64,000 nucleotides of DNA. It comes from an uncultured Candidatus Saccharibacteria bacterium (lineage in GTDB: Bacteria > Patescibacteriota > Saccharimonadia > Saccharimonadales > CAZARM01). This document shows positions 17,836 to 26,324 of the stretch, one piece after another. Every line of letters begins with the position of its first letter. The first letter of the stretch is position 1. The DNA lies in assembly GCA_964487615.1 (NCBI GenBank), contig CAZARM010000003.1, positions 2,339 through 66,338 on the forward strand, written 5' to 3'. Under the pieces are notes generated by a model. It ran no database searches and was not told the DNA's origin. It saw nothing but the letters and a program-made list of their open reading frames with translations. The translations under genes were made by a program, and so were the position numbers.

Positions 17836-19194
17836 ATGGGCTTTAGATCTGTTGTTAAGAGAGTTGTTCCCCGGGCCACGTTTCAGAAAATTGAGCCTCT
17901 AGGGCACAAGAGCGAAGCGGTTATGTGGAATGTTAAAAACGGCTGGCCAGGCAGGGGTGTCAAGTTTATAGGAGTTACGGGCACTAACGGCAAAACCAGT
18001 ACCTGCTTCATGATCCACCGAATGCTGAGCGAAGCTGGATACAAAGTTGGGCTGATGACCACTGTGGCGCATGGGGTGGGCAATAACATCCAACCTCAGG
18101 TTGAGCATATGACAACCGTATCCGTGCCACTGCTTCATAAACGGATCAAAGAAATGAAGGCCAAAGGTGCCGAGTGGATTGTTTTTGAGGTCACTAGCCA
18201 CGCCCTGGCTCAGGGGCGAACCATTGGTATTCCATTTGAAATAGCCGTGATGACCAATGTTACGCATGAACACTTGGATTATCACGGGACGTTTGAAAAG
18301 TACCTAGACGCCAAGCGATTGTTATTCAAGCAGACTGACCGTAATCAGCAGGGAATGCGGGTAGGCATAGCAAATGCCGACGATCCAAATGGCAAGCTTT
18401 TTGCTAGCGATGTCAAAAACCCAATTTTATATGGCATTAACGGAGGTGATTTACGAGCTAAGGACGTTAAATTATCACCAGCGGGCAGCACATTTACGGC
18501 CAAATTAGGCACCAATGAATACCAGATTAAGTGCCACCTGCCAGGGTCTTTTAATGTTTCAAATGCCCTGGCCGCTATAGGCGTGGGGCAAGCGTTAGGA
18601 TTGAGCATAATACAGATAGAGCAGGGAATTGCGGCACTCAAGGCTGTTGAAGGCCGGATGACCCGCATTGACGAGGGTCAAGATTTTGACGTGATTGTCG
18701 ATTATGCCCACACACCAGACAGCTTTGAGAAGTTATTTAAAGATTTGAAGCCAGTGGTGAAGGGCAAATTGATTGCCGTCTTTGGTTCAGCTGGCCGCCG
18801 TGATGAGGCTAAAAGAGCAGTGCAGGGCAAGATAGCCGGCCGATATGCCGACGAAGTGGTGTTAACAGAGGAGGATGACCGTGACATTGACGGACATGAA
18901 ATTATGGATCAGATTGCTAAAGGCGCTCAGGAATCGGGCAAAGTACGGGACAAAGATTTGTTTCTGGTACACGACCGTACAGAGGCTATCAAGTTTGCAG
19001 TCAAGCGAGCACAAAAAGGTGACACCGTTATCTTGCTAGGTAAGGGGCACGAGAAAGACATCCTCCGTAACGGTCCTAAGGCGGCCGAGCTGCGTCACTT
19101 ACAACAGGACGACCACAACCCTGACCGCGTCGTCGAATTCCCTTGGGACGAAATCGCTACCGCTCACGAAGTCTTGAAAAATATCTTGAAATAG
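17836..19194 (+). CDS. murE: Mur ligase family protein (MurE-like UDP-MurNAc-tripeptide synthetase)
   Basis: P-loop GVTGTNGKTST, DYAHTPDS, and a C-terminal Mur ligase domain. The N-terminal domain is short, so substrate specificity is uncertain. Confidence 0.7.
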   Translation: MGFRSVVKRVVPRATFQKIEPLGHKSEAVMWNVKNGWPGRGVKFIGVTGTNGKTSTCFMIHRMLSEAGYKVGLMTTVAHGVGNNIQPQVEHMTTVSVPLLHKRIKEMKAKGAEWIVFEVTSHALAQGRTIGIPFEIAVMTNVTHEHLDYHGTFEKYLDAKRLLFKQTDRNQQGMRVGIANADDPNGKLFASDVKNPILYGINGGDLRAKDVKLSPAGSTFTAKLGTNEYQIKCHLPGSFNVSNALAAIGVGQALGLSIIQIEQGIAALKAVEGRMTRIDEGQDFDVIVDYAHTPDSFEKLFKDLKPVVKGKLIAVFGSAGRRDEAKRAVQGKIAGRYADEVVLTEEDDRDIDGHEIMDQIAKGAQESGKVRDKDLFLVHDRTEAIKFAVKRAQKGDTVILLGKGHEKDILRNGPKAAELRHLQQDDHNPDRVVEFPWDEIATAHEVLKNILK

Positions 19195-19212
19195 TGTAAA
19201 GTATTGCTTCCA

Positions 19213-19473
19213 ATGCCTATAGAGACGCAAAAATTAGTCGATTTTCAGAATCAGTTAGCGCGTGATTATAATGCTAGGCGCGAACAACACTTGGCTCGCA
19301 TAATTGAACTCGGTTCGCCCCCTGTTGGCAGTAATCCAGAAATTGATACTTTATCAGCTGAATTTACAGGTGAGAAGAGGACCCTAGATGCCCTAGCAGC
19401 ATTTATCATCACAGAGGCGGCTGACTCAGTAGGCCATCTGGAACCTCACATCTTGGGCGAACCAAACGAGTAA
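19213..19473 (+). CDS. hypothetical protein
   Basis: The track ORF starts at TTG 19204; ATG 19213 (MPIETQK...) is more likely. No recognisable motif. Confidence 0.45.
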   Translation: MPIETQKLVDFQNQLARDYNARREQHLARIIELGSPPVGSNPEIDTLSAEFTGEKRTLDALAAFIITEAADSVGHLEPHILGEPNE

Positions 19474-19560
19474 TTCAAAAGTTGACAAAACTGCAAACAT
19501 TTGTTATAGTGTAAGTAAGATTTACTAAATAAAAATCTACAAAAACAAAGGATCGAAGAA

Positions 19561-19782
19561 ATGAGCACTGACACACAAGCACTAGTTACTGAGCAGTCTG
19601 CTGAAGCAGAAGTACAAACTAACGAAGCTGCACAGGCTACAGCCGATGCTGAATTGGGGCACAAAGCTCTAGAACTGGTACAGCTTCCAGACGGAACTGT
19701 GACTACCAAGTCTGAGGTTGATGCATCAATCGCTGCTGGTGAAGAACAGAGTGGTCCTTACGGCGGCCATAATCAGCGCTAG
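19561..19782 (+). CDS. hypothetical small acidic protein
   Basis: 73 aa with AAAGGA upstream. The antisense ORF 19446..19709 is Cys/Ser-rich and was rejected. Confidence 0.45.
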   Translation: MSTDTQALVTEQSAEAEVQTNEAAQATADAELGHKALELVQLPDGTVTTKSEVDASIAAGEEQSGPYGGHNQR

Positions 19783-19800
19783 CAACCAACTTAGCTGATT

Positions 19801-19828
19801 AAAAAGACCTGCAGCAGCAGGTCTTTTT
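19801..19828. terminator. bidirectional intrinsic terminator
   Basis: AAAAAGACCTGC-AGCA-GCAGGTCTTTTT. Confidence 0.8.
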
Positions 19829-20729
19829 AATCATTATCTAGCGTCAAAGTAGTGCAGCGGATGAAGCCGCCGCCTTTACGCAGCTCGGTAATATCCGGAG
19901 TAATGACTTTGAATCCGCGTTTTTCTAGCTCGGCTTGGAAACGGGGGGCATTATTGCTCATTACTACGGTTTCACCAGTCGATACTAAGTTCAGGGCTAA
20001 GCCTGTTCTGGCCTCCTGGCGGCTTACCTCAATCTTATCTACACCATCAAAGTTATGAAGTTTCCGGCGACTTGCAGCGGTAAACACCTCTGGGCACCAA
20101 GCGATAAGACTTTTATGGCCAGCTTCCGGTCCTCTCAAAACGGCCAGTGCCAAGTCTAAGTCGTAGTAGTAGCTATCTGTCCAGCCCGTCTGCTTGTTGA
20201 TAACCCGCGGTCCTAGACCAAACAGTCGGCGCTTGGGGATGGTTTGTAAGCCGATAACTTCGTAACCTAGAGTTTTTGCAATAAAATCTTGGACAGCAAC
20301 ATCTGTACGGTACTCTGAACCCATGAACAAGTAATTGCCGCATGGGAGGGCGTCTCCCTGGCCGCTGAAGCGTAGTCCTGCCGGAACTTTAATAATAGTT
20401 TTGCCCAAAGCTTTCAGAACTGTCTCGGCATACGATTCCTCAGCTTGGCGTTGCTTTGGTAGGGAAGACATGACCGCAGTTTCACGCCTGATTAGAGCCC
20501 AGTTGGCCGCGTAAACACCGTCCTGACAATCAACCGGTGGATCAACAGAAACCACCCGTATCCCGGCCATTTCTACAGCTTCCTTAATGGCGTGGTGTTC
20601 GGCCACGGCTTGGTTAACATTAATTGGAACCTTGGAATCCATATGGGCATTGATGGCGAATTCGTCGCTGAAATACTGAGCACCAGACATCAAAACTGTG
20701 CGATTGATCATTACGCCCAATTGTAGCAA
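19827..20729 (-). CDS. guanidino-group-modifying enzyme (amidinotransferase / DDAH / arginine-deiminase superfamily)
   Basis: 300 aa. The C-terminal GGGFIRCTTL resembles the catalytic Cys motif of this superfamily. It is shorter than a canonical ArcA. Confidence 0.6.
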   Translation of the reverse strand: MLQLGVMINRTVLMSGAQYFSDEFAINAHMDSKVPINVNQAVAEHHAIKEAVEMAGIRVVSVDPPVDCQDGVYAANWALIRRETAVMSSLPKQRQAEESYAETVLKALGKTIIKVPAGLRFSGQGDALPCGNYLFMGSEYRTDVAVQDFIAKTLGYEVIGLQTIPKRRLFGLGPRVINKQTGWTDSYYYDLDLALAVLRGPEAGHKSLIAWCPEVFTAASRRKLHNFDGVDKIEVSRQEARTGLALNLVSTGETVVMSNNAPRFQAELEKRGFKVITPDITELRKGGGFIRCTTLTLDND

Positions 20730-20765
20730 ACAGCTCTAGGCCAAGTTAGATTTCTAACATAGCTG

Positions 20766-20793
20766 TTGCACAAGCACATTTTGAGGGTATAAT
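20766..20793 (+). promoter_or_regulatory. sigma70-type promoter of GC-rich unit A
   Basis: TTGCAC (20766-20771), 16-nt spacer, TATAAT (20788-20793). Confidence 0.55.
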
Positions 20794-21002
20794 AAGCACT
20801 AATTTAATTGAGCCAGGTGTCTTAAATTAGTACACCGACCCGGTTGAAGGTTTAGGGGTTGCCTTGAGCCTATTCAGCGTTCGGCGATCTCTAGCACTTT
20901 GAAAATGTGTAAGCTACATGGCCGGCATTTGATCGTTGCTCGCGATTAATTGCCGACCATGTATAGGATCCCAACCACCAACCAGAGGAGACAGCAACGT
21001 CC

Positions 21003-21122
21003 ATGAGCAAGCTGCAGGGTAGGCAGACCAACAACAAGGCACGCCGCAAGGGTGTCGTGAAGGCCAACCCCAACCGTCGCACCTCGCGTGCGCTCAACCA
21101 GCAGGGCAAGGGCAGGCGATGA
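21003..21122 (+). CDS. possible 39-aa Arg/Lys-rich peptide inside unit A
   Basis: MSKLQGRQTNNKARRKGVVKANPNRRTSRALNQQGKGRR. GAGGAG lies 12 nt upstream. GC by codon position in my hand count is about 56/51/87% (GC3 34 of 39). Confidence 0.3.
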   Translation: MSKLQGRQTNNKARRKGVVKANPNRRTSRALNQQGKGRR

Positions 21123-21145
21123 AGCCACACAGCAAAGACATCAGG

Positions 21146-21256
21146 ATGCCCCAGCGCCCAGACCCCCGCACCAGCCTGATCCGCGGATCGCAGATCATCG
21201 GCTCCCGACCCCTCGGCGGCAACAGCACTTCTCGCGGCCAGCAGGCGCGCGGGTAA
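21146..21256 (+). CDS. possible 36-aa peptide inside unit A
   Basis: MPQRPDPRTSLIRGSQIIGSRPLGGNSTSRGQQARG. GC3 is 31 of 36 by hand count. The SD is weak. Confidence 0.2.
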   Translation: MPQRPDPRTSLIRGSQIIGSRPLGGNSTSRGQQARG

Positions 21257-21466
21257 CCGCACAACCACAACAGAGACAGGAGGTTGCCCATGGGTAGATG
21301 ATATTGCTCATCTCGTCGCCCTAAAATACGGGAAAGGATTGCCGGCTGGCACACGCACGATGGTGGACAGGCCTCCGGTCGTTCAACCCCTCACCGCGCC
21401 AGCCGGCAATCCTCACCGCCCACCACCCGATCCAACTTACACATTTTCAATTTCACCATAGCTACT

Positions 21467-21490
21467 AAGACGCCAGTCAGGGCGTTTTTT
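21467..21490 (+). terminator. intrinsic terminator of unit A
   Basis: AAGACGCC-AGTCAG-GGCGTTTT with a T6 run. It is not T-rich on the other strand. Confidence 0.7.
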
Positions 21491-21510
21491 AGTTTATGAA
21501 CATAAGTTTT

Positions 21511-21539
21511 TTGCTTCTTTACAAAAACAGGTGTATAAA
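21511..21539 (+). promoter_or_regulatory. sigma70-type promoter of GC-rich unit B
   Basis: TTGCTT (21511-21516), 17-nt spacer, TATAAA (21534-21539). Confidence 0.5.
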
Positions 21540-21636
21540 AAAAGTAATTCAATGAGAGGCAAGTTTTAAAAAGCAGAAATCGAATTGAAGGATTTGCATC
21601 CTGGAGCTCGTTGGGAGTTCGGAAGCAATGTACTTT

Positions 21637-22200
21637 GAGATTGTGTAGAACCGTTGTCGGCAGGTATTCGTAAACGTTATTTATGAGTAGCTGCCGACAA
21701 CGGAGTCGGAACTGCTAGCGTTCTATCCATCCACCACCGCTCGTCCGAAGGAAATCGAACCTTCAGGAAGGGACAATCTGTGGCACACAAGGGCAACACA
21801 AGACCCGCAAACAAAAAGGGTCGCTGGGGAAGCAAGCACAAGTACGGAAGGCCAGCCGAATTCGGCCAGGAGCGTCGGCAAGCTCGAAGGTTCAACCCAC
21901 CTCCGTGCTACTCCACTCTGTGGGTGCCCGGCCGTGACTGCGTCTTGTTCCTGCCCTGGACCATCGTTCCCATGTTCGTAGCACCCTTCGGGAGGTACGC
22001 CTAAGTCAACAACCGACACCACCTGAGGGACGAAGCAGCGACATCGCTCGCCGCGTACTGTCGGTAGCTTCGTCTATTGAGGGGACGTGAGGGTTGCTGG
22101 ATGTGCGCCGGTAGAACAGATGACTGCGTAGGACATTCGTCCTTGCATCCGTTCCCCGCGCCACCAGCAACCCCGTTCCATCTCATTCCTACACAATCTC
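21637..22200 (+). ncRNA. candidate large structured RNA, unit B (paralog of unit A; the transcript probably spans about 21546-22250)
   Basis: A 12-bp perfect helix pairs 21637-21648 with 22189-22200. A 13-bp perfect hairpin forms at 21651-21663/21691-21703. Further helices form at 22029-22036/22067-22074 and 22091-22100/22164-22173. There is a C(UUCG)G hairpin near 21985-21992. C-rich tracts are homologous to those of unit A. Confidence 0.55.
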
Positions 22201-22216
22201 TTTAATCCTGAAAATC

Positions 22217-22250
22217 AAAATATCCGCGACAAACGTTGCGGATATTTTTA
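22217..22250. terminator. bidirectional intrinsic terminator shared by unit B (+) and the convergent unit C (-)
   Basis: AAAATATCCGC-GACAAACGTT-GCGGATATTTTT; A/T runs on both sides. Confidence 0.75.
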
Positions 22251-22254
22251 ATTG

Positions 22255-22429
22255 CTAAATATGTGGAGGATGGGCTTGGTTTTCTAGGGTGTTGTGATTG
22301 CGGGAGGAGAGGGGTGGTGGCGAATGGCCAACGACACTCTTCTACTTCGGCAAAACCCGAAAACCAAGCCCGGGTACCCGGTAGGGGCGTGCACGCCATT
22401 GTGCTCACCCATACCGGGGTCCGGTGTTC
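22255..22429 (-). other. GC-rich structured region downstream of ORF 22430..22819 (3' UTR or remnant of a third RNA unit)
   Basis: 13-bp perfect helix at 22272-22284/22359-22371. A GGCGTGCACGCC palindrome is present. The minus strand carries CGCCACCACCCC (complement of 22302-22322), resembling the C-rich tracts of units A and B. Confidence 0.4.
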
Positions 22430-22819
22430 CTACGAGACGCCGAGGCGGCTCTGTGCTGCGGTGGCCCGCTTCTTGTTGACCGACTCGGCCTTGTGCTTGG
22501 CGACCTTGATGATCGCTGCGTGCTGGTCGGACATGAAGTTCTTCCACTTCTCGTCGCTGAGCTGCTGTTGCGGCTTGACCTTGGCTTCGAGCCAGCCGTC
22601 GTTCTTGACCTCAGCGTGTGACACGGCGGCCATGGCTTTGACCGTAGTGCAAACCCGCTCTTGATCTTCGCGTGACAGTCCGAAACCATTGAGATCGATC
22701 TTGATCTCACCCGCTCCGGAGCCAGCTGTCAAAAATGCCACAATGCCTTCTTTCCCCTGTGTTCGGTCCTTGTAGGAATTGGACCCAAAAACAATACCAT
22801 AAAAACTATTTATTGACAA
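22430..22819 (-). CDS. hypothetical protein with foreign (GC3-rich) codon usage
   Basis: The coordinates given are the track ORF, which starts at TTG 22819. That TTG sits inside a promoter-like TTGTCA-17-TATTGT. The more likely start is GTG 22741, preceded by GGGGAAAGAAGG. The last 92 codons have about 80% GC3 by hand count. No family recognised. Confidence 0.55.
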   Translation of the reverse strand: MSINSFYGIVFGSNSYKDRTQGKEGIVAFLTAGSGAGEIKIDLNGFGLSREDQERVCTTVKAMAAVSHAEVKNDGWLEAKVKPQQQLSDEKWKNFMSDQHAAIIKVAKHKAESVNKKRATAAQSRLGVS

Positions 22820-22847
22820 TAGTAAGGAAATTTGTTCTTATATATAT

Positions 22848-23570
22848 ATGATGCCCTTATTTGAAGATGAATCAAATTTTGAACAAGAACCAGGTTCTTT
22901 AGACGACTATAATCGTGAAGGCCTGCGAGTATTGCATGAAACTCAGTCTGTTTTAACTGAAAAAATGATCGACACCGCATTCTTGGCGATTAAATTATTA
23001 TGGAAAGAGCAAGACGAAGAATTCGACAGATTAGGTGCGGAGGGCTGGCCAGAGGGCGAAGAGTTAAAATATAAAGTCATGGAAGACCCTCATGGTTTTC
23101 CTTTTGAAGAAGACCACACAACAAGGGCGCTCTCCATGCTACTTAGGCCAAAAGTGTCGGAGTCAGTAGACCCCGTGGACATTAATCCTAACGATGCCAC
23201 GCTAGAAAAGCTCAAAGTATTTGTGCCAATACCCCAAGATACAGCTCTCAGTGAAAATTTTCTGGTTGACGAATTACCTAAGCCTAAAGAGATCGGTATC
23301 GCCTACACCACCCCTGAAGGGCTAGTTTGCAGCTATGTCATCAATAAATTAAAGGTATTGCCATTTGTGAGTGCTTTTGATGGTGATGATGTAGAAATAG
23401 CTCCGCTTGAAGAAACGCCCGATATTGTAATGGATGAGTTGTCAGGAGATCCTGCAGTCATGAGGGTTGAGGCCCCTCTGGTGGCCGATCTTTTCACTAA
23501 GCTTTTACAGTGGAAAGCGGTTGTCCAGCGAGTGTCAGCAGTCGGTGACCCTGAAGTCCACGACCTGTAA
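22848..23570 (+). CDS. hypothetical acidic protein
   Basis: 240-aa ORF in AT-rich native-looking sequence. No motif recognised. Confidence 0.55.
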   Translation: MMPLFEDESNFEQEPGSLDDYNREGLRVLHETQSVLTEKMIDTAFLAIKLLWKEQDEEFDRLGAEGWPEGEELKYKVMEDPHGFPFEEDHTTRALSMLLRPKVSESVDPVDINPNDATLEKLKVFVPIPQDTALSENFLVDELPKPKEIGIAYTTPEGLVCSYVINKLKVLPFVSAFDGDDVEIAPLEETPDIVMDELSGDPAVMRVEAPLVADLFTKLLQWKAVVQRVSAVGDPEVHDL

Positions 23571-25796: not shown

Positions 25797-26324
25797 ATGG
25801 CAGTGTGGCCATTTAATCGTAAGAAGACCGAAGATTCAACGTTACCCGAGGAAGTACAGAATTATTACCAAGCTGAAAAGCGCGAGCGTGCTGGCGTAGC
25901 CGGCTTGCTGGCCGTAGGCACTCTGTTGGTTACTGTTTTAATAGCCGTTGGACTATTCTTTGGTGGTCGCTGGATATACCGCACTGTAGTTGATAACAAC
26001 GACGACAAAAACACTAACACGACTGCAGAAAATAATGGTGAACAACAGCCCGTTAGCCCCACAACTGACAATCAAGACAAGAAAGCTGATACTCCAGCCC
26101 CAACTACACCATCGGCTAACCCAACTCCAAATCCAACTCCAGCCACGACGCCCCAACCTACTACGCCTACGGCTGCCGCCCAAACACCAACAACCACCCC
26201 CAAAACTGGTTCAGATGATCTACCAAACACTGGCCCAGGCAATATCACAGCCATTTTGATTGGCACCGTAGTTTTAGCTTCCGCGCTCCACTACGTTACT
26301 CTCGGCCGTCGTCAGACTAGTTAA
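25797..26324 (+). CDS. LPXTG-motif cell-wall-anchored Pro/Thr-rich surface protein
   Basis: N-terminal anchor helix, a long PT-rich spacer, then LPNTG, a hydrophobic stretch and RRQTS at the C-terminus (a sortase sorting signal). Confidence 0.75.
   Translation: MAVWPFNRKKTEDSTLPEEVQNYYQAEKRERAGVAGLLAVGTLLVTVLIAVGLFFGGRWIYRTVVDNNDDKNTNTTAENNGEQQPVSPTTDNQDKKADTPAPTTPSANPTPNPTPATTPQPTTPTAAAQTPTTTPKTGSDDLPNTGPGNITAILIGTVVLASALHYVTLGRRQTS

What the first reader, a model, noticed from the sequence alone, without database searches (positions are those of the whole stretch)
20766..22250. Two tandem, paralogous ~0.55-0.6 kb GC-rich structured-RNA-like genes, each closed by a perfect long-range terminal helix
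Two consecutive + strand units share one architecture, and neither has a credible long ORF.

Unit A:
- Promoter TTGCAC/TATAAT at 20766-20793.
- Leader motifs TTGAAGG (20844), GTTCGG (20879) and ACTTTGA (20896).
- 15-bp perfect helix TTGAAAATGTGTAAG (20899-20913) with CTTACACATTTTCAA (21436-21450).
- 13-bp hairpin 20915-20927/20951-20963 with an AT-rich loop.
- C-rich tract ATCCCAACCACCAACC (20968-20983).
- 16-bp perfect helix 21335-21350/21398-21413.
- C-rich tract CCGCCCACCACCCGATCCA (21416-21434).
- Terminator 21467-21490.

Unit B:
- Promoter TTGCTT/TATAAA at 21511-21539.
- The same three leader motifs at 21585, 21617 and 21632, with near-identical spacing (32 and 15 nt versus 35 and 17 nt in unit A).
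- 12-bp perfect helix GAGATTGTGTAG (21637-21648) with CTACACAATCTC (22189-22200).
- 13-bp perfect hairpin 21651-21663/21691-21703 with an AT-rich loop.
- ATCCATCCACCACCGC (21725-21740).
- Helices 22029-22036/22067-22074 and 22091-22100/22164-22173.
- A C(UUCG)G hairpin near 21985-21992.
- CGCGCCACCAGCAACCCCGTTCCA (22157-22180).
- Terminator 22217-22250.

The ends and motif order are conserved while the cores have diverged. That pattern is expected for paralogous structured RNAs. The size class is that of the large ornate bacterial RNAs, but I cannot assign these units to any family I know.
Basis: partly seen in the sequence, partly recalled or inferred. Interest (0 to 1): 0.85.

Follow-up and report, generated by a model that had tools for sequence, protein, structure and literature searches.

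The report
Structured small-gene mRNA cassettes near groESL
The two units are most likely genes for tiny, unusually GC-rich proteins carried on messenger RNAs whose two ends pair in a conserved fold, and related soil Saccharibacteria use the same RNA frame for unrelated small genes at the same chromosomal spot; this frame matches no Rfam family and its purpose is unknown.

Summary
Unit A (20766-21490) and unit B (21511-22253) each have a perfect long-range helix of 15 and 12 bp. They fold far better than shuffles (z -7.5 and -6.4) and match no Rfam family.

They are probably not ORF-less ornate RNAs. Each carries Shine-Dalgarno-preceded small ORFs: A has 39 aa plus a 45-aa ORF with an ATGA overlap, and B has 74 aa. 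Third-codon GC is 0.70-0.85, against 0.41-0.57 in ordinary genes of the window.

I found 12 units (11 distinct) of the same architecture in Saccharimonadales genomes and metagenomes. All lie between mur ligase/DDAH-like genes and groES-groEL. The order is promoter, covarying leader hairpin P1 (with a conserved G.U), 5' arm of the closing helix P0, long hairpin P2, ORF(s), perfect hairpin P3, C-rich tract, 3' arm and terminator. P0 covaries strongly (11 of 16 pairs).

The enclosed genes are unrelated orphans of 36-246 aa. They diverge sharply even between near-identical strains.

Best reading: a new structured-UTR mRNA frame whose 5'/3'-UTR pairing governs RNA processing or stability. The closest analogue is B. 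subtilis hbs. A DNA-level inverted-repeat role for P0 is not excluded.

The parts
20766..20793 (+). Unit A promoter-like boxes: TTGCAC (20766-20771), 16-nt spacer, TATAAT (20788-20793)
   Evidence: Read. A promoter-like box sits at the same position in all family members. It is below the scan tool's -35 threshold.
20849..20898 (+). Unit A leader hairpin P1: outer stem, UU bulge, inner stem GAGC/GUUC with a G.U pair
   Evidence: MFE and centroid structures. Family covariation: 8 of 11 pairs compensatory, 94% of cells paired.
20899..20913 (+). Unit A P0 5' arm (TTGAAAATGTGTAAG)
   Evidence: Perfect 15-bp complement of 21436-21450 (I5). Present in the MFE structure. Family covariation.
20915..20963 (+). 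Unit A hairpin P2, directly after the 5' arm, with an AT-rich loop
   Evidence: 18 Watson-Crick pairs, 2 G.U pairs, one A.C and one U.U mismatch.
21003..21122 (+). ORF A39 (MSKLQGRQTNNKARRKGVVKANPNRRTSRALNQQGKGRR); SD GAGGAG lies upstream
   Evidence: GC by codon position 0.56/0.49/0.85. Called as a gene in two Logan assemblies.
21119..21256 (+). ORF A45; its start overlaps the A39 stop (ATGA), as expected for translational coupling
   Evidence: GC by codon position 0.60/0.58/0.82. No homologue found.
21335..21413 (+). Unit A hairpin P3 in the 3'UTR, with a 16-bp perfect Watson-Crick stem
   Evidence: I3. MFE structure. No G.U pairs.
21414..21435 (+). Unit A C-rich, G-poor tract between P3 and the 3' arm
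   Evidence: The 45 nt upstream of the 3' arm contain 24 C.
21436..21450 (+). Unit A P0 3' arm (CTTACACATTTTCAA)
21467..21490 (+). Unit A intrinsic terminator
21511..21539 (+). Unit B promoter-like boxes: TTGCTT (21511-21516) and TATAAA (21534-21539)
   Evidence: Read. Aligned with the unit A promoter.
21589..21627 (+). Unit B leader hairpin P1: UG bulge, inner stem GAGCUC/GAGUUC with a G.U pair
21637..21648 (+). Unit B P0 5' arm (GAGATTGTGTAG)
   Evidence: I8..
21651..21703 (+). Unit B hairpin P2
   Evidence: I1; 21 Watson-Crick pairs and 2 G.U pairs.
21780..22004 (+). ORF B74; GTG start, purine-rich GGAAGGG upstream
   Evidence: GC by codon position 0.55/0.54/0.70. Only low-complexity hits among 1.84 billion representatives.
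22091..22173 (+). Unit B hairpin P3 in the 3'UTR
   Evidence: I6..
22174..22188 (+). Unit B C-rich tract
22189..22200 (+). Unit B P0 3' arm (CTACACAATCTC)
22212..22253 (.). Terminator hairpin. It ends unit B and, read on the other strand, ends the convergent minus-strand unit C.
   Evidence: I4..

Best explanation
Units A and B are tandem paralogous transcription units. Each produces a roughly 0.7-kb mRNA for very small basic proteins: A encodes 39 aa plus a coupled 45 aa, and B encodes 74 aa.

The mRNA is built on a conserved, highly structured UTR frame. This frame occurs in a subset of soil Saccharimonadales, always between the mur-ligase/DDAH-like genes and groES-groEL. Its order is:
- promoter;
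- a roughly 100-nt leader with a covarying hairpin P1 (UU/UG bulge, GAG/UUC stem with a conserved G.U);
- the 5' arm of P0, an AU-rich, perfectly Watson-Crick 12-15-bp helix;
- a long hairpin P2;
- SD and GC3-rich ORF(s);
- a perfect GC-rich hairpin P3;
- a C-rich, G-poor tract;
- the 3' arm of P0;
- an intrinsic terminator.

Shown computationally: the architecture, the covariation of P0 and P1, the coding signature of the cargo, the hypervariable orphan nature of the cargo, and the fixed locus.

Inferred: P0 pairs the 5'UTR with the 3'UTR of the same mRNA and closes it into a compact particle. This controls ribonuclease access or processing and hence mRNA lifetime. The model is the 14-bp 5'/3'-UTR interaction of B. 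subtilis hbs mRNA, and P0 could also serve as an RNase III stem. It probably does not work by directly masking the ribosome-binding site.
For: - The long-range helix is present in the MFE structure of all 12 full-length units and in the centroid structures of A and B.
- P0 covariation across 11 distinct units: 11 of 16 pairs changed on both sides, 30 compensated cells, 0 of 500 shuffles as high, and the signal collapses when the partner is slid.
- P1: 8 of 11 pairs compensatory, 94% paired, with a G.U conserved in 7 of 9 sequences.
- P2 has 27 G.U pairs against 5 A.C mismatches, which points to selection on the sense RNA strand.
- Every unit has an SD-preceded ORF soon after P2, and most show GC3 > GC1 > GC2 (0.70-0.88 against 0.41-0.57 in housekeeping genes).
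- dN/dS is about 0.45 for the one orthologous cargo pair.
- All units sit at one syntenic locus in the orientation of groESL.
- An unbiased metagenome pattern scan recovered only that locus.
- A 14-bp 5'/3'-UTR interaction modulates RNase Y cleavage in hbs mRNA (PMC5737220).
- In silico, removing the 3' arm does not change RBS accessibility. This favours a stability or processing role over translational masking.
Against: - There are no expression data, so transcripts, their ends and translation are all predicted.
- P0 has no G.U pair in about 150 pairs, whereas P2 has 12%. That is what a DNA-level inverted repeat would show.
- The A and B peptides are short, low-complexity orphans with no homologue.
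- B74's codon-position signal is modest.
- The covariation alignments were hand-anchored, ungapped constructs.
- The reason for the GC-rich cargo and its hypervariability is unexplained by this model.
Confidence: 0.5

Rival explanations
1. DNA-level inverted repeats. The P0 arms would be recombination sites, either for an invertible switch (the ORF segment flips relative to the fixed promoter and leader) or for exchanging the enclosed GC-rich segment between strains.
For: - The P0 arms are perfectly Watson-Crick with no G.U in any unit, unlike P2.
- The arm core TTGAGATTG is conserved in sequence, as a recombinase site would be.
- The enclosed segment is a sharp divergence hotspot between near-identical strains: 36-66% identity against 98-100% in the flanks.
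- The cargo is unrelated between genomes.
Against: - Every assembly recovered (17 loci carrying the 12 units and their duplicates) has the cargo in the same sense orientation, with the C-rich tract on the 3' side.
- The genes next to the locus that were scanned against Pfam (tsaD, mur ligase, DDAH-like, groEL and several hypotheticals) include no recombinase. The same genes plus groES flank the locus in relatives.
- The divergence boundary in L061 versus L064 lies inside the ORF start, about 130 nt downstream of the 5' arm, not at the arm.
- P0 abuts RNA-selected hairpins P1 and P2 at fixed spacing.
Confidence: 0.17
2. One reading: the RNA itself is the product, a large ornate structured ncRNA of about 0.55-0.6 kb, and the ORFs are incidental consequences of GC-rich sequence.
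For: - Very negative folding z-scores.
- Covarying helices.
- No protein homologues for any cargo.
- Stop codons are rare in GC-rich sequence.
Against: - The interior is not conserved in sequence, length (407-1533 nt) or structure between units. Only the UTR modules are conserved.
- Every unit has an SD at the correct spacing and codon-phase GC periodicity.
- A39 and A45 overlap by ATGA.
- dN/dS is below 1 in the one testable pair.
- There is no Rfam match.
Confidence: 0.1
3. Type I toxin-antitoxin-like module of the hok/Sok or aapA1/IsoA1 kind. A 5'-3' long-distance interaction would keep a toxic small-protein mRNA stable and translationally inert until 3' processing.
For: - 5'-3' end pairing of a small-ORF mRNA, with overlapping or coupled ORFs in unit A, and tandem duplication.
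- In aapA1 the full-length mRNA is inert because of such pairing (PMC5416894).
Against: - The peptides are hydrophilic and Arg/Lys-rich, not membrane toxins.
- Cargo in relatives includes acidic proteins and a 246-aa protein.
- The promoter scan found no antisense (minus-strand) promoter within units A and B, and only one minus-strand promoter match, at 22819-22791 in unit C, in 20500-23000.
- The SD is not part of P0, and predicted RBS accessibility is unchanged by removing the 3' arm.
Confidence: 0.07
4. Recently acquired foreign DNA: an island from a high-GC donor such as an actinobacterial host or its phages, or a MITE-like mobile element bounded by terminal inverted repeats.
For: - GC of 0.56-0.65 and GC3 up to 0.88 in a 48% GC genome.
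- Inverted repeats at the ends.
- Patchy presence among relatives.
Against: - No similarity to phage or plasmid records, nor to any of 5.8 billion protein clusters for the 246-aa cargo.
- The units occur only at one syntenic locus and are never dispersed.
- No target-site duplications (read).
- The arms differ between copies in one genome.
- The conserved promoter and leader lie outside the repeats.
Confidence: 0.06

Closest known systems
B. subtilis hbs mRNA 5'/3'-UTR interaction (Braun, Durand and Condon 2017, PMC5737220)
   Same: A short mRNA for a small basic protein. [quoted passage not shown] That helix governs ribonuclease access and mRNA stability rather than masking the RBS.
   Different: There is no sequence or structural homology. 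Here the helix is perfectly Watson-Crick and flanked by conserved P1, P2 and P3 hairpins and a C-rich tract. The frame carries unrelated, hypervariable GC-rich cargo, and RNase involvement is untested.
S. aureus icaR 5'-3' UTR pairing (Ruiz de los Mozos et al. 2013, PMC3868564)
   Same: A C-rich 3'UTR element in the same mRNA as a purine-rich SD, with the 5'-3' duplex proposed as an RNase III substrate.
   Different: In icaR the UCCCCUG motif pairs with the SD itself. Here P0 does not include the SD. Complementarity between the C-rich tract and the SD is no better than composition-matched shuffles, and predicted RBS accessibility does not depend on the 3' end.
Type I toxin mRNAs with 5'-3' long-distance interaction (hok; H. 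pylori aapA1, PMC5416894)
   Same: A small-ORF mRNA closed by pairing of its ends into a compact, stable fold, with tandem paralogues.
   Different: No hydrophobic toxin, no antisense RNA signal, and the SD is not sequestered by the end pairing. The cargo is functionally heterogeneous.
Large ornate bacterial ncRNAs (ROOL, GOLLD, OLE, HEARO, raiA; Rfam)
   Same: The same size class (about 0.55-0.7 kb), GC-rich relative to the genome, strongly structured, and found in intergenic-looking DNA.
   Different: No covariance-model match. The interior is not conserved and carries SD-preceded ORFs. Only the end modules are conserved.
Invertible DNA segments (invertons) and integron cassettes (named from my own knowledge; no paper consulted)
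   Same: Short perfect inverted repeats bounding a few hundred bp, and hypervariable orphan small genes at a fixed chromosomal site.
   Different: Only one orientation was seen in all assemblies. No recombinase, integrase, attC or attI was found next to the locus. Each unit has its own promoter and terminator.

Membership tests
Rfam families, including ROOL, GOLLD, OLE, HEARO and raiA | A covariance-model match at or near the gathering score | tested here: not met
   In the whole window only 4 tRNAs reach gathering. A permissive scan of 20600-23000 gave only chance-level hits, the best being mir-H1 at 25 bits against a gathering score of 97.
Large ornate ncRNA (as a class) | A conserved structured core with no conserved coding capacity | tested here: not met
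   The core varies in length (407-1533 nt) and is unalignable between units. Every unit has an SD and an ORF with GC3 periodicity. dN/dS is 0.45 in one pair.
hbs-type 5'/3'-UTR-paired mRNA | A long-range helix of about 14 bp between the 5'UTR and 3'UTR of one mRNA | tested here: met
   12-15-bp perfect helices in 12 of 12 units, present in the MFE structure, with covariation.
hbs-type 5'/3'-UTR-paired mRNA | The helix modulates RNase Y or RNase J cleavage and mRNA half-life | not testable with these tools
   This needs Northern blots or half-life measurements in wild type and arm mutants (PMC5737220).
icaR-type 3'UTR anti-SD | A specific 3'UTR C-rich motif pairs with the SD and blocks initiation | tested here: inconclusive
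   A C-rich, G-poor tract is present in 10 of 11 units. Duplex energy with the SD is not better than composition-preserving shuffles. The MFE structure pairs the SD with the 3' tract in only 2-3 units. Accessibility is unchanged by 3' truncation.
Type I toxin-antitoxin (hok/Sok, aapA1/IsoA1) | A small hydrophobic membrane toxin | tested here: not met
   A39 and A45 are hydrophilic and basic. Other cargo is acidic or as long as 246 aa.
Type I toxin-antitoxin (hok/Sok, aapA1/IsoA1) | A cis-encoded antisense RNA antitoxin | tested here: not met
   The scan found no minus-strand promoter within units A and B. The only minus-strand match in 20500-23000 is at 22819-22791, in unit C. This was a consensus scan only, with no RNA-seq.
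Inverton (invertible DNA switch) | Inverted repeats bounding the segment | tested here: met
   Perfect 12-15-bp repeats with no G.U.
Inverton (invertible DNA switch) | Both orientations occur in populations, and an invertase acts on the repeats | tested here: not met
   All recovered assemblies show the same orientation. The Pfam-scanned neighbours include no recombinase, and the locus has the same flanking genes in relatives. Read-level data were not available.
MITE or IS-derived element | Target-site duplication and dispersed copies with identical terminal repeats | tested here: not met
   No direct repeats flank the arms. Copies occur only at one locus. The arms differ between A and B.
Diversity-generating retroelement target | A template/variable repeat pair and a nearby reverse transcriptase | tested here: not met
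   No long direct repeats in 20700-22900. None of the Pfam-scanned neighbours is a reverse transcriptase.

The most novel reading that the evidence does not exclude
The locus could be a dedicated cassette platform. A conserved promoter, UTR frame and perfect inverted repeats would serve as a fixed expression and recombination scaffold. Unrelated GC-rich orphan genes would be swapped or born in it at high rate, possibly as effectors tuned to the high-GC actinobacterial hosts of these epibionts. That would be a new kind of hypervariable gene-cassette system lacking any known integrase.
Probability: 0.12. Interest if true: 0.85.

Novelty: new variant of a known kind. Interest (0 to 1): 0.6.

Why it matters
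Bacterial mRNAs whose 5' and 3' UTRs pair are known from only a handful of single-gene cases, such as hbs, icaR and type I toxins. Here the pairing belongs to a reusable, covariation-supported RNA frame that is conserved across genera while its coding cargo is replaced.

That offers a natural system for asking what end-to-end mRNA closure does in bacteria. It also adds a new structured RNA family from the poorly studied Patescibacteria/CPR.

The cargo itself is of interest. It consists of orphan, GC3-rich small proteins that diverge to about 47% amino-acid identity between strains whose flanks are 95-100% identical. This marks a fast-evolving locus next to groESL in obligate epibionts, a plausible place to look for host-interaction or conflict genes.

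Tried and rejected
- Rfam at gathering score and at permissive E-values: nothing.
- An exact leader pattern taken from A and B in GTDB genomes and viral contigs: 0 hits.
- A looser family pattern in viral contigs: 0 hits.
- blastn and nhmmer of whole units against 32 related loci: only the identical Logan contig. Homologues were found only through architecture and a 5'-module profile.
- Of 34 metagenome pattern hits, 22 were one unrelated gut sequence and 2 lacked a 3' arm. All 24 were rejected.
- Pfam, PHROGs, PADLOC and NCBIfam on 10 cargo proteins: no family.
- Homologue searches:
  - p240 and the 246-aa cargo matched only themselves.
  - A45 matched nothing.
  - A39 was too short to submit.
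  - B74 gave only repetitive low-complexity hits.
- Phage and plasmid DNA or protein searches: no match.
- The anti-SD hypothesis for the C-rich tract and the 3'-end-dependent RBS masking hypothesis: not supported in silico.
- Exact-protein look-ups aimed at close relatives with different alleles: only a 99.8% identical second sample, which was uninformative.
- Literature searches for Saccharibacteria or Patescibacteria structured RNAs: nothing relevant.
Full report
**Observation**

- Unit A has a perfect 15-bp inverted repeat (20899-20913/21436-21450) with the arms 522 nt apart.
- It also has a 16-bp perfect helix (21335-21350/21398-21413) and an intrinsic terminator (21467-21488).
- Unit B has a perfect 12-bp repeat (21637-21648/22189-22200) with the arms 540 nt apart.
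- It also has a long hairpin at 21651-21703, a helix at 22091-22107/22157-22173 and a terminator hairpin at 22212-22253.

The shared leader motifs occur only in these two places in the window. The cores are GC-rich (0.56-0.65) against 0.48 for the window, with a strong A>T skew. As RNA, both units fold much better than dinucleotide shuffles (z = -7.5 and -6.4). Both keep the long-range helix in the MFE and centroid structures. No Rfam family matches, at gathering score or permissively.

**Coding signal**

The statement that neither unit has a credible ORF does not hold.
- A frame-resolved GC plot shows third-position GC peaks that coincide with three small ORFs.
- A39 (21003-21122) has GC by codon position of 0.56/0.49/0.85 and GAGGAG upstream.
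- A45 (21119-21256; 0.60/0.58/0.82) starts at an ATGA overlap with the A39 stop.
- B74 (21780-22004) has 0.55/0.54/0.70.
- Ordinary genes in the window have GC3 of 0.41-0.57.
- A39 is called as a gene in two Logan assemblies.

**Organism and locus**

Flanking proteins identify a soil-type Saccharibacterium of the Saccharimonadales. The closest genome in GTDB shares 76% identity in the mur ligase. The gene order tsaD, mur ligase, DDAH-like (minus strand), variable gap, groES-groEL is conserved in relatives.

**Homologues**

Whole-unit sequence searches found nothing. The same gap in relatives, however, holds GC-rich islands with the same architecture:
- L007 has two units: a 14-bp helix with arms 541 nt apart, and a 15-bp helix with arms 1533 nt apart.
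- L022 has one unit, a 15-bp helix with arms 512 nt apart.
- L008 has a unit cut by the contig end.

A pattern built from the conserved promoter, leader loop and 5' arm was scanned against metagenome contigs. It gave 34 hits.
- 22 were one unrelated gut sequence.
- 2 had no 3' arm.
- 1 was cut off by the contig end before any 3' arm could be seen.
- 9 loci (5 distinct units) had a perfectly complementary 13-14-bp 3' arm 407-873 nt downstream.

Although that scan was blind to location, every true hit lies between mur/DDAH and groES-groEL, in the orientation of groESL. A 5'-module profile finds no further copies in the window or in any locus. About four of some twenty related representative genomes carry the unit.

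**Architecture**

All 12 units (11 distinct) share this order:
1. A promoter-like -35/-10.
2. A leader of about 100 nt containing hairpin P1.
3. The 5' arm of P0.
4. A long hairpin P2, starting 1-3 nt later.
5. A purine-rich SD and ORF(s).
6. A near-perfect GC-rich hairpin P3.
7. A C-rich, G-poor tract.
8. The 3' arm of P0.
9. An intrinsic terminator.

P0 is fully formed in the MFE structure of all 12 predicted transcripts.

**Covariation**

The covariation alignments are ungapped constructs that I anchored by hand on conserved motifs. They therefore lean towards the tested structure, and the slid-partner controls address this only partly.
- P0, anchored on the outer end of the helix: 11 of 16 pairs change on both sides, with 30 compensated cells. 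None of 500 shuffles reaches this. Pairing collapses from 86% to 31-47% when the partner is slid.
- P1 (outer 7-bp stem, UU/UG bulge, GAGN/NYUC inner stem): 8 of 11 pairs compensatory and 94% of cells paired. A G.U is conserved in 7 of 9 sequences and replaced by G-C in the other 2.
- P2 has 27 G.U pairs against 5 A.C mismatches, the asymmetry expected for selection on the sense RNA strand.
- P0 has no G.U at all, and P3 has about 2%.

P1 and P2 are therefore RNA structures. P0 is either an RNA helix under unusually strict Watson-Crick constraint or a DNA-level inverted repeat.

**Cargo**

The sequence enclosed by P0 is not conserved. Its predicted proteins are 36-246 aa, one to three per unit. 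They range from Arg/Lys-rich peptides to acidic proteins and are unrelated to each other.
- None matches Pfam, PHROGs, PADLOC or NCBIfam.
- The 246-aa protein has no relative among 5.8 billion clusters or in phage genomes.
- A45 has no relative, and B74 gives only low-complexity hits.
- The DNA matches no phage or plasmid record.

Two near-identical strains, L061 and L064, are informative. They are 98-100% identical through the promoter and 5'UTR and 85-100% identical in mur and groESL. Identity drops to 36-66% across the ORF and 3'UTR. Their ORFs remain homologous (47% amino-acid identity), with dN/dS of about 0.45 and saturated dS. The arms remain complementary.

**Mechanism**

I tested whether the 3' end masks the ribosome-binding site, as in icaR (PMC3868564) or aapA1 (PMC5416894).
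- Complementarity between the C-rich tract and the SD is no better than composition-matched shuffles.
- The predicted unpaired probability of the RBS is essentially unchanged when the 3' arm is removed.
- The promoter scan found no antisense promoter within units A and B, and the peptides are not hydrophobic.

The closest functional analogue is B. subtilis hbs mRNA. There a 14-bp 5'/3'-UTR helix limits RNase Y cleavage in a structured leader (PMC5737220). I therefore favour a role for P0 in closing the mRNA and controlling ribonuclease access or processing, possibly as an RNase III stem stacked on P2. This step is inference.

**Rivals**

A DNA inversion or cassette-exchange role for the perfect repeats fits three observations: the absence of G.U, the conserved arm core, and the divergence hotspot. 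Against it, all assemblies show one orientation, no recombinase is linked, and the divergence boundary does not coincide with the 5' arm.

I consider a pure ncRNA, a type I toxin module, and a foreign island or MITE less likely. The reasons are given in the rival list.

**Unexplained**

- Why the cargo is GC3-rich in a 48% GC genome.
- Why the cargo is hypervariable.
- What the conserved P1 loop and bulge and the C-rich tract bind.

**Verdict**

They are best described as small-protein mRNAs on a conserved UTR frame, not as ornate ncRNAs.

Noticed in passing
window 22255-22830 (minus strand); L022 3290-3880 (-); L002 4600-5200 (-): There is a third GC-rich small gene, 'unit C' (ORF 22430-22741, possibly starting at 22819; GC3 0.76-0.88). 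It converges on unit B's terminator. Its conserved 3'UTR is a different one: a hairpin CCGGGCTTGG...CCAAGCCCG (22272-22284/22359-22371) enclosing a C-rich loop. Two relatives share this 3'UTR with unrelated ORFs.
   Followed up: partly
L041 ~2770-2790, L058/L061/L064 and L065, just after the -10 box: A CRP/FNR-like palindrome (TGTGAAATAATTAACA, TGTAAAATAATTCACA, TGTAAGATAATTTACA) overlaps the predicted transcription start of several metagenomic units. It is absent from the window's units, which suggests a repressor or operator in a subfamily.
   Followed up: no
L058/L061/L064, P2 hairpin: P2 contains an internal terminator-like GC stem followed by a U run (GCCCGCCTTTTGGGGCGGTTTTTT). This could be an attenuator within the leader of that subfamily.
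   Followed up: no
window 22848-23570 (+); L022 3964-4524 (+): The 240-aa protein next to unit C is an orphan. In 5.8 billion clusters it matched only itself. L022 has a 186-aa protein in the equivalent position with faint local resemblance.
   Followed up: partly
window 21003-21060; L007 6204-6260 and 6925-6990; L022 4811-4900: The first ORFs of five units start with loosely similar Arg-rich N-termini (GRQTNNKARR, HRQTIKARA, GRTRQRGRRASKRRK, GGRQVRSARKQAQRDKA). These resemble arginine-rich RNA-binding motifs. Other units carry quite different cargo, so this may be compositional.
   Followed up: no
window 26000-26300: A strongly C-skewed stretch (GC skew about -0.48) lies inside ORF 25797-26324, a low-complexity 175-aa protein downstream of groEL.
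   Followed up: no
L026 603-722/2124-2243 and 2239-2371/4306-4438: A Nomurabacteria contig fetched for synteny carries 120- and 133-nt perfect inverted repeats 1.4-1.9 kb apart. This is probably a mobile element and unrelated to the finding.
   Followed up: no
L068 (SRR9179562) versus window 18750-21385: A second sample carries the same strain at 99.8% identity. The only difference inside unit A is G20938A, in the P2 loop.
   Followed up: yes
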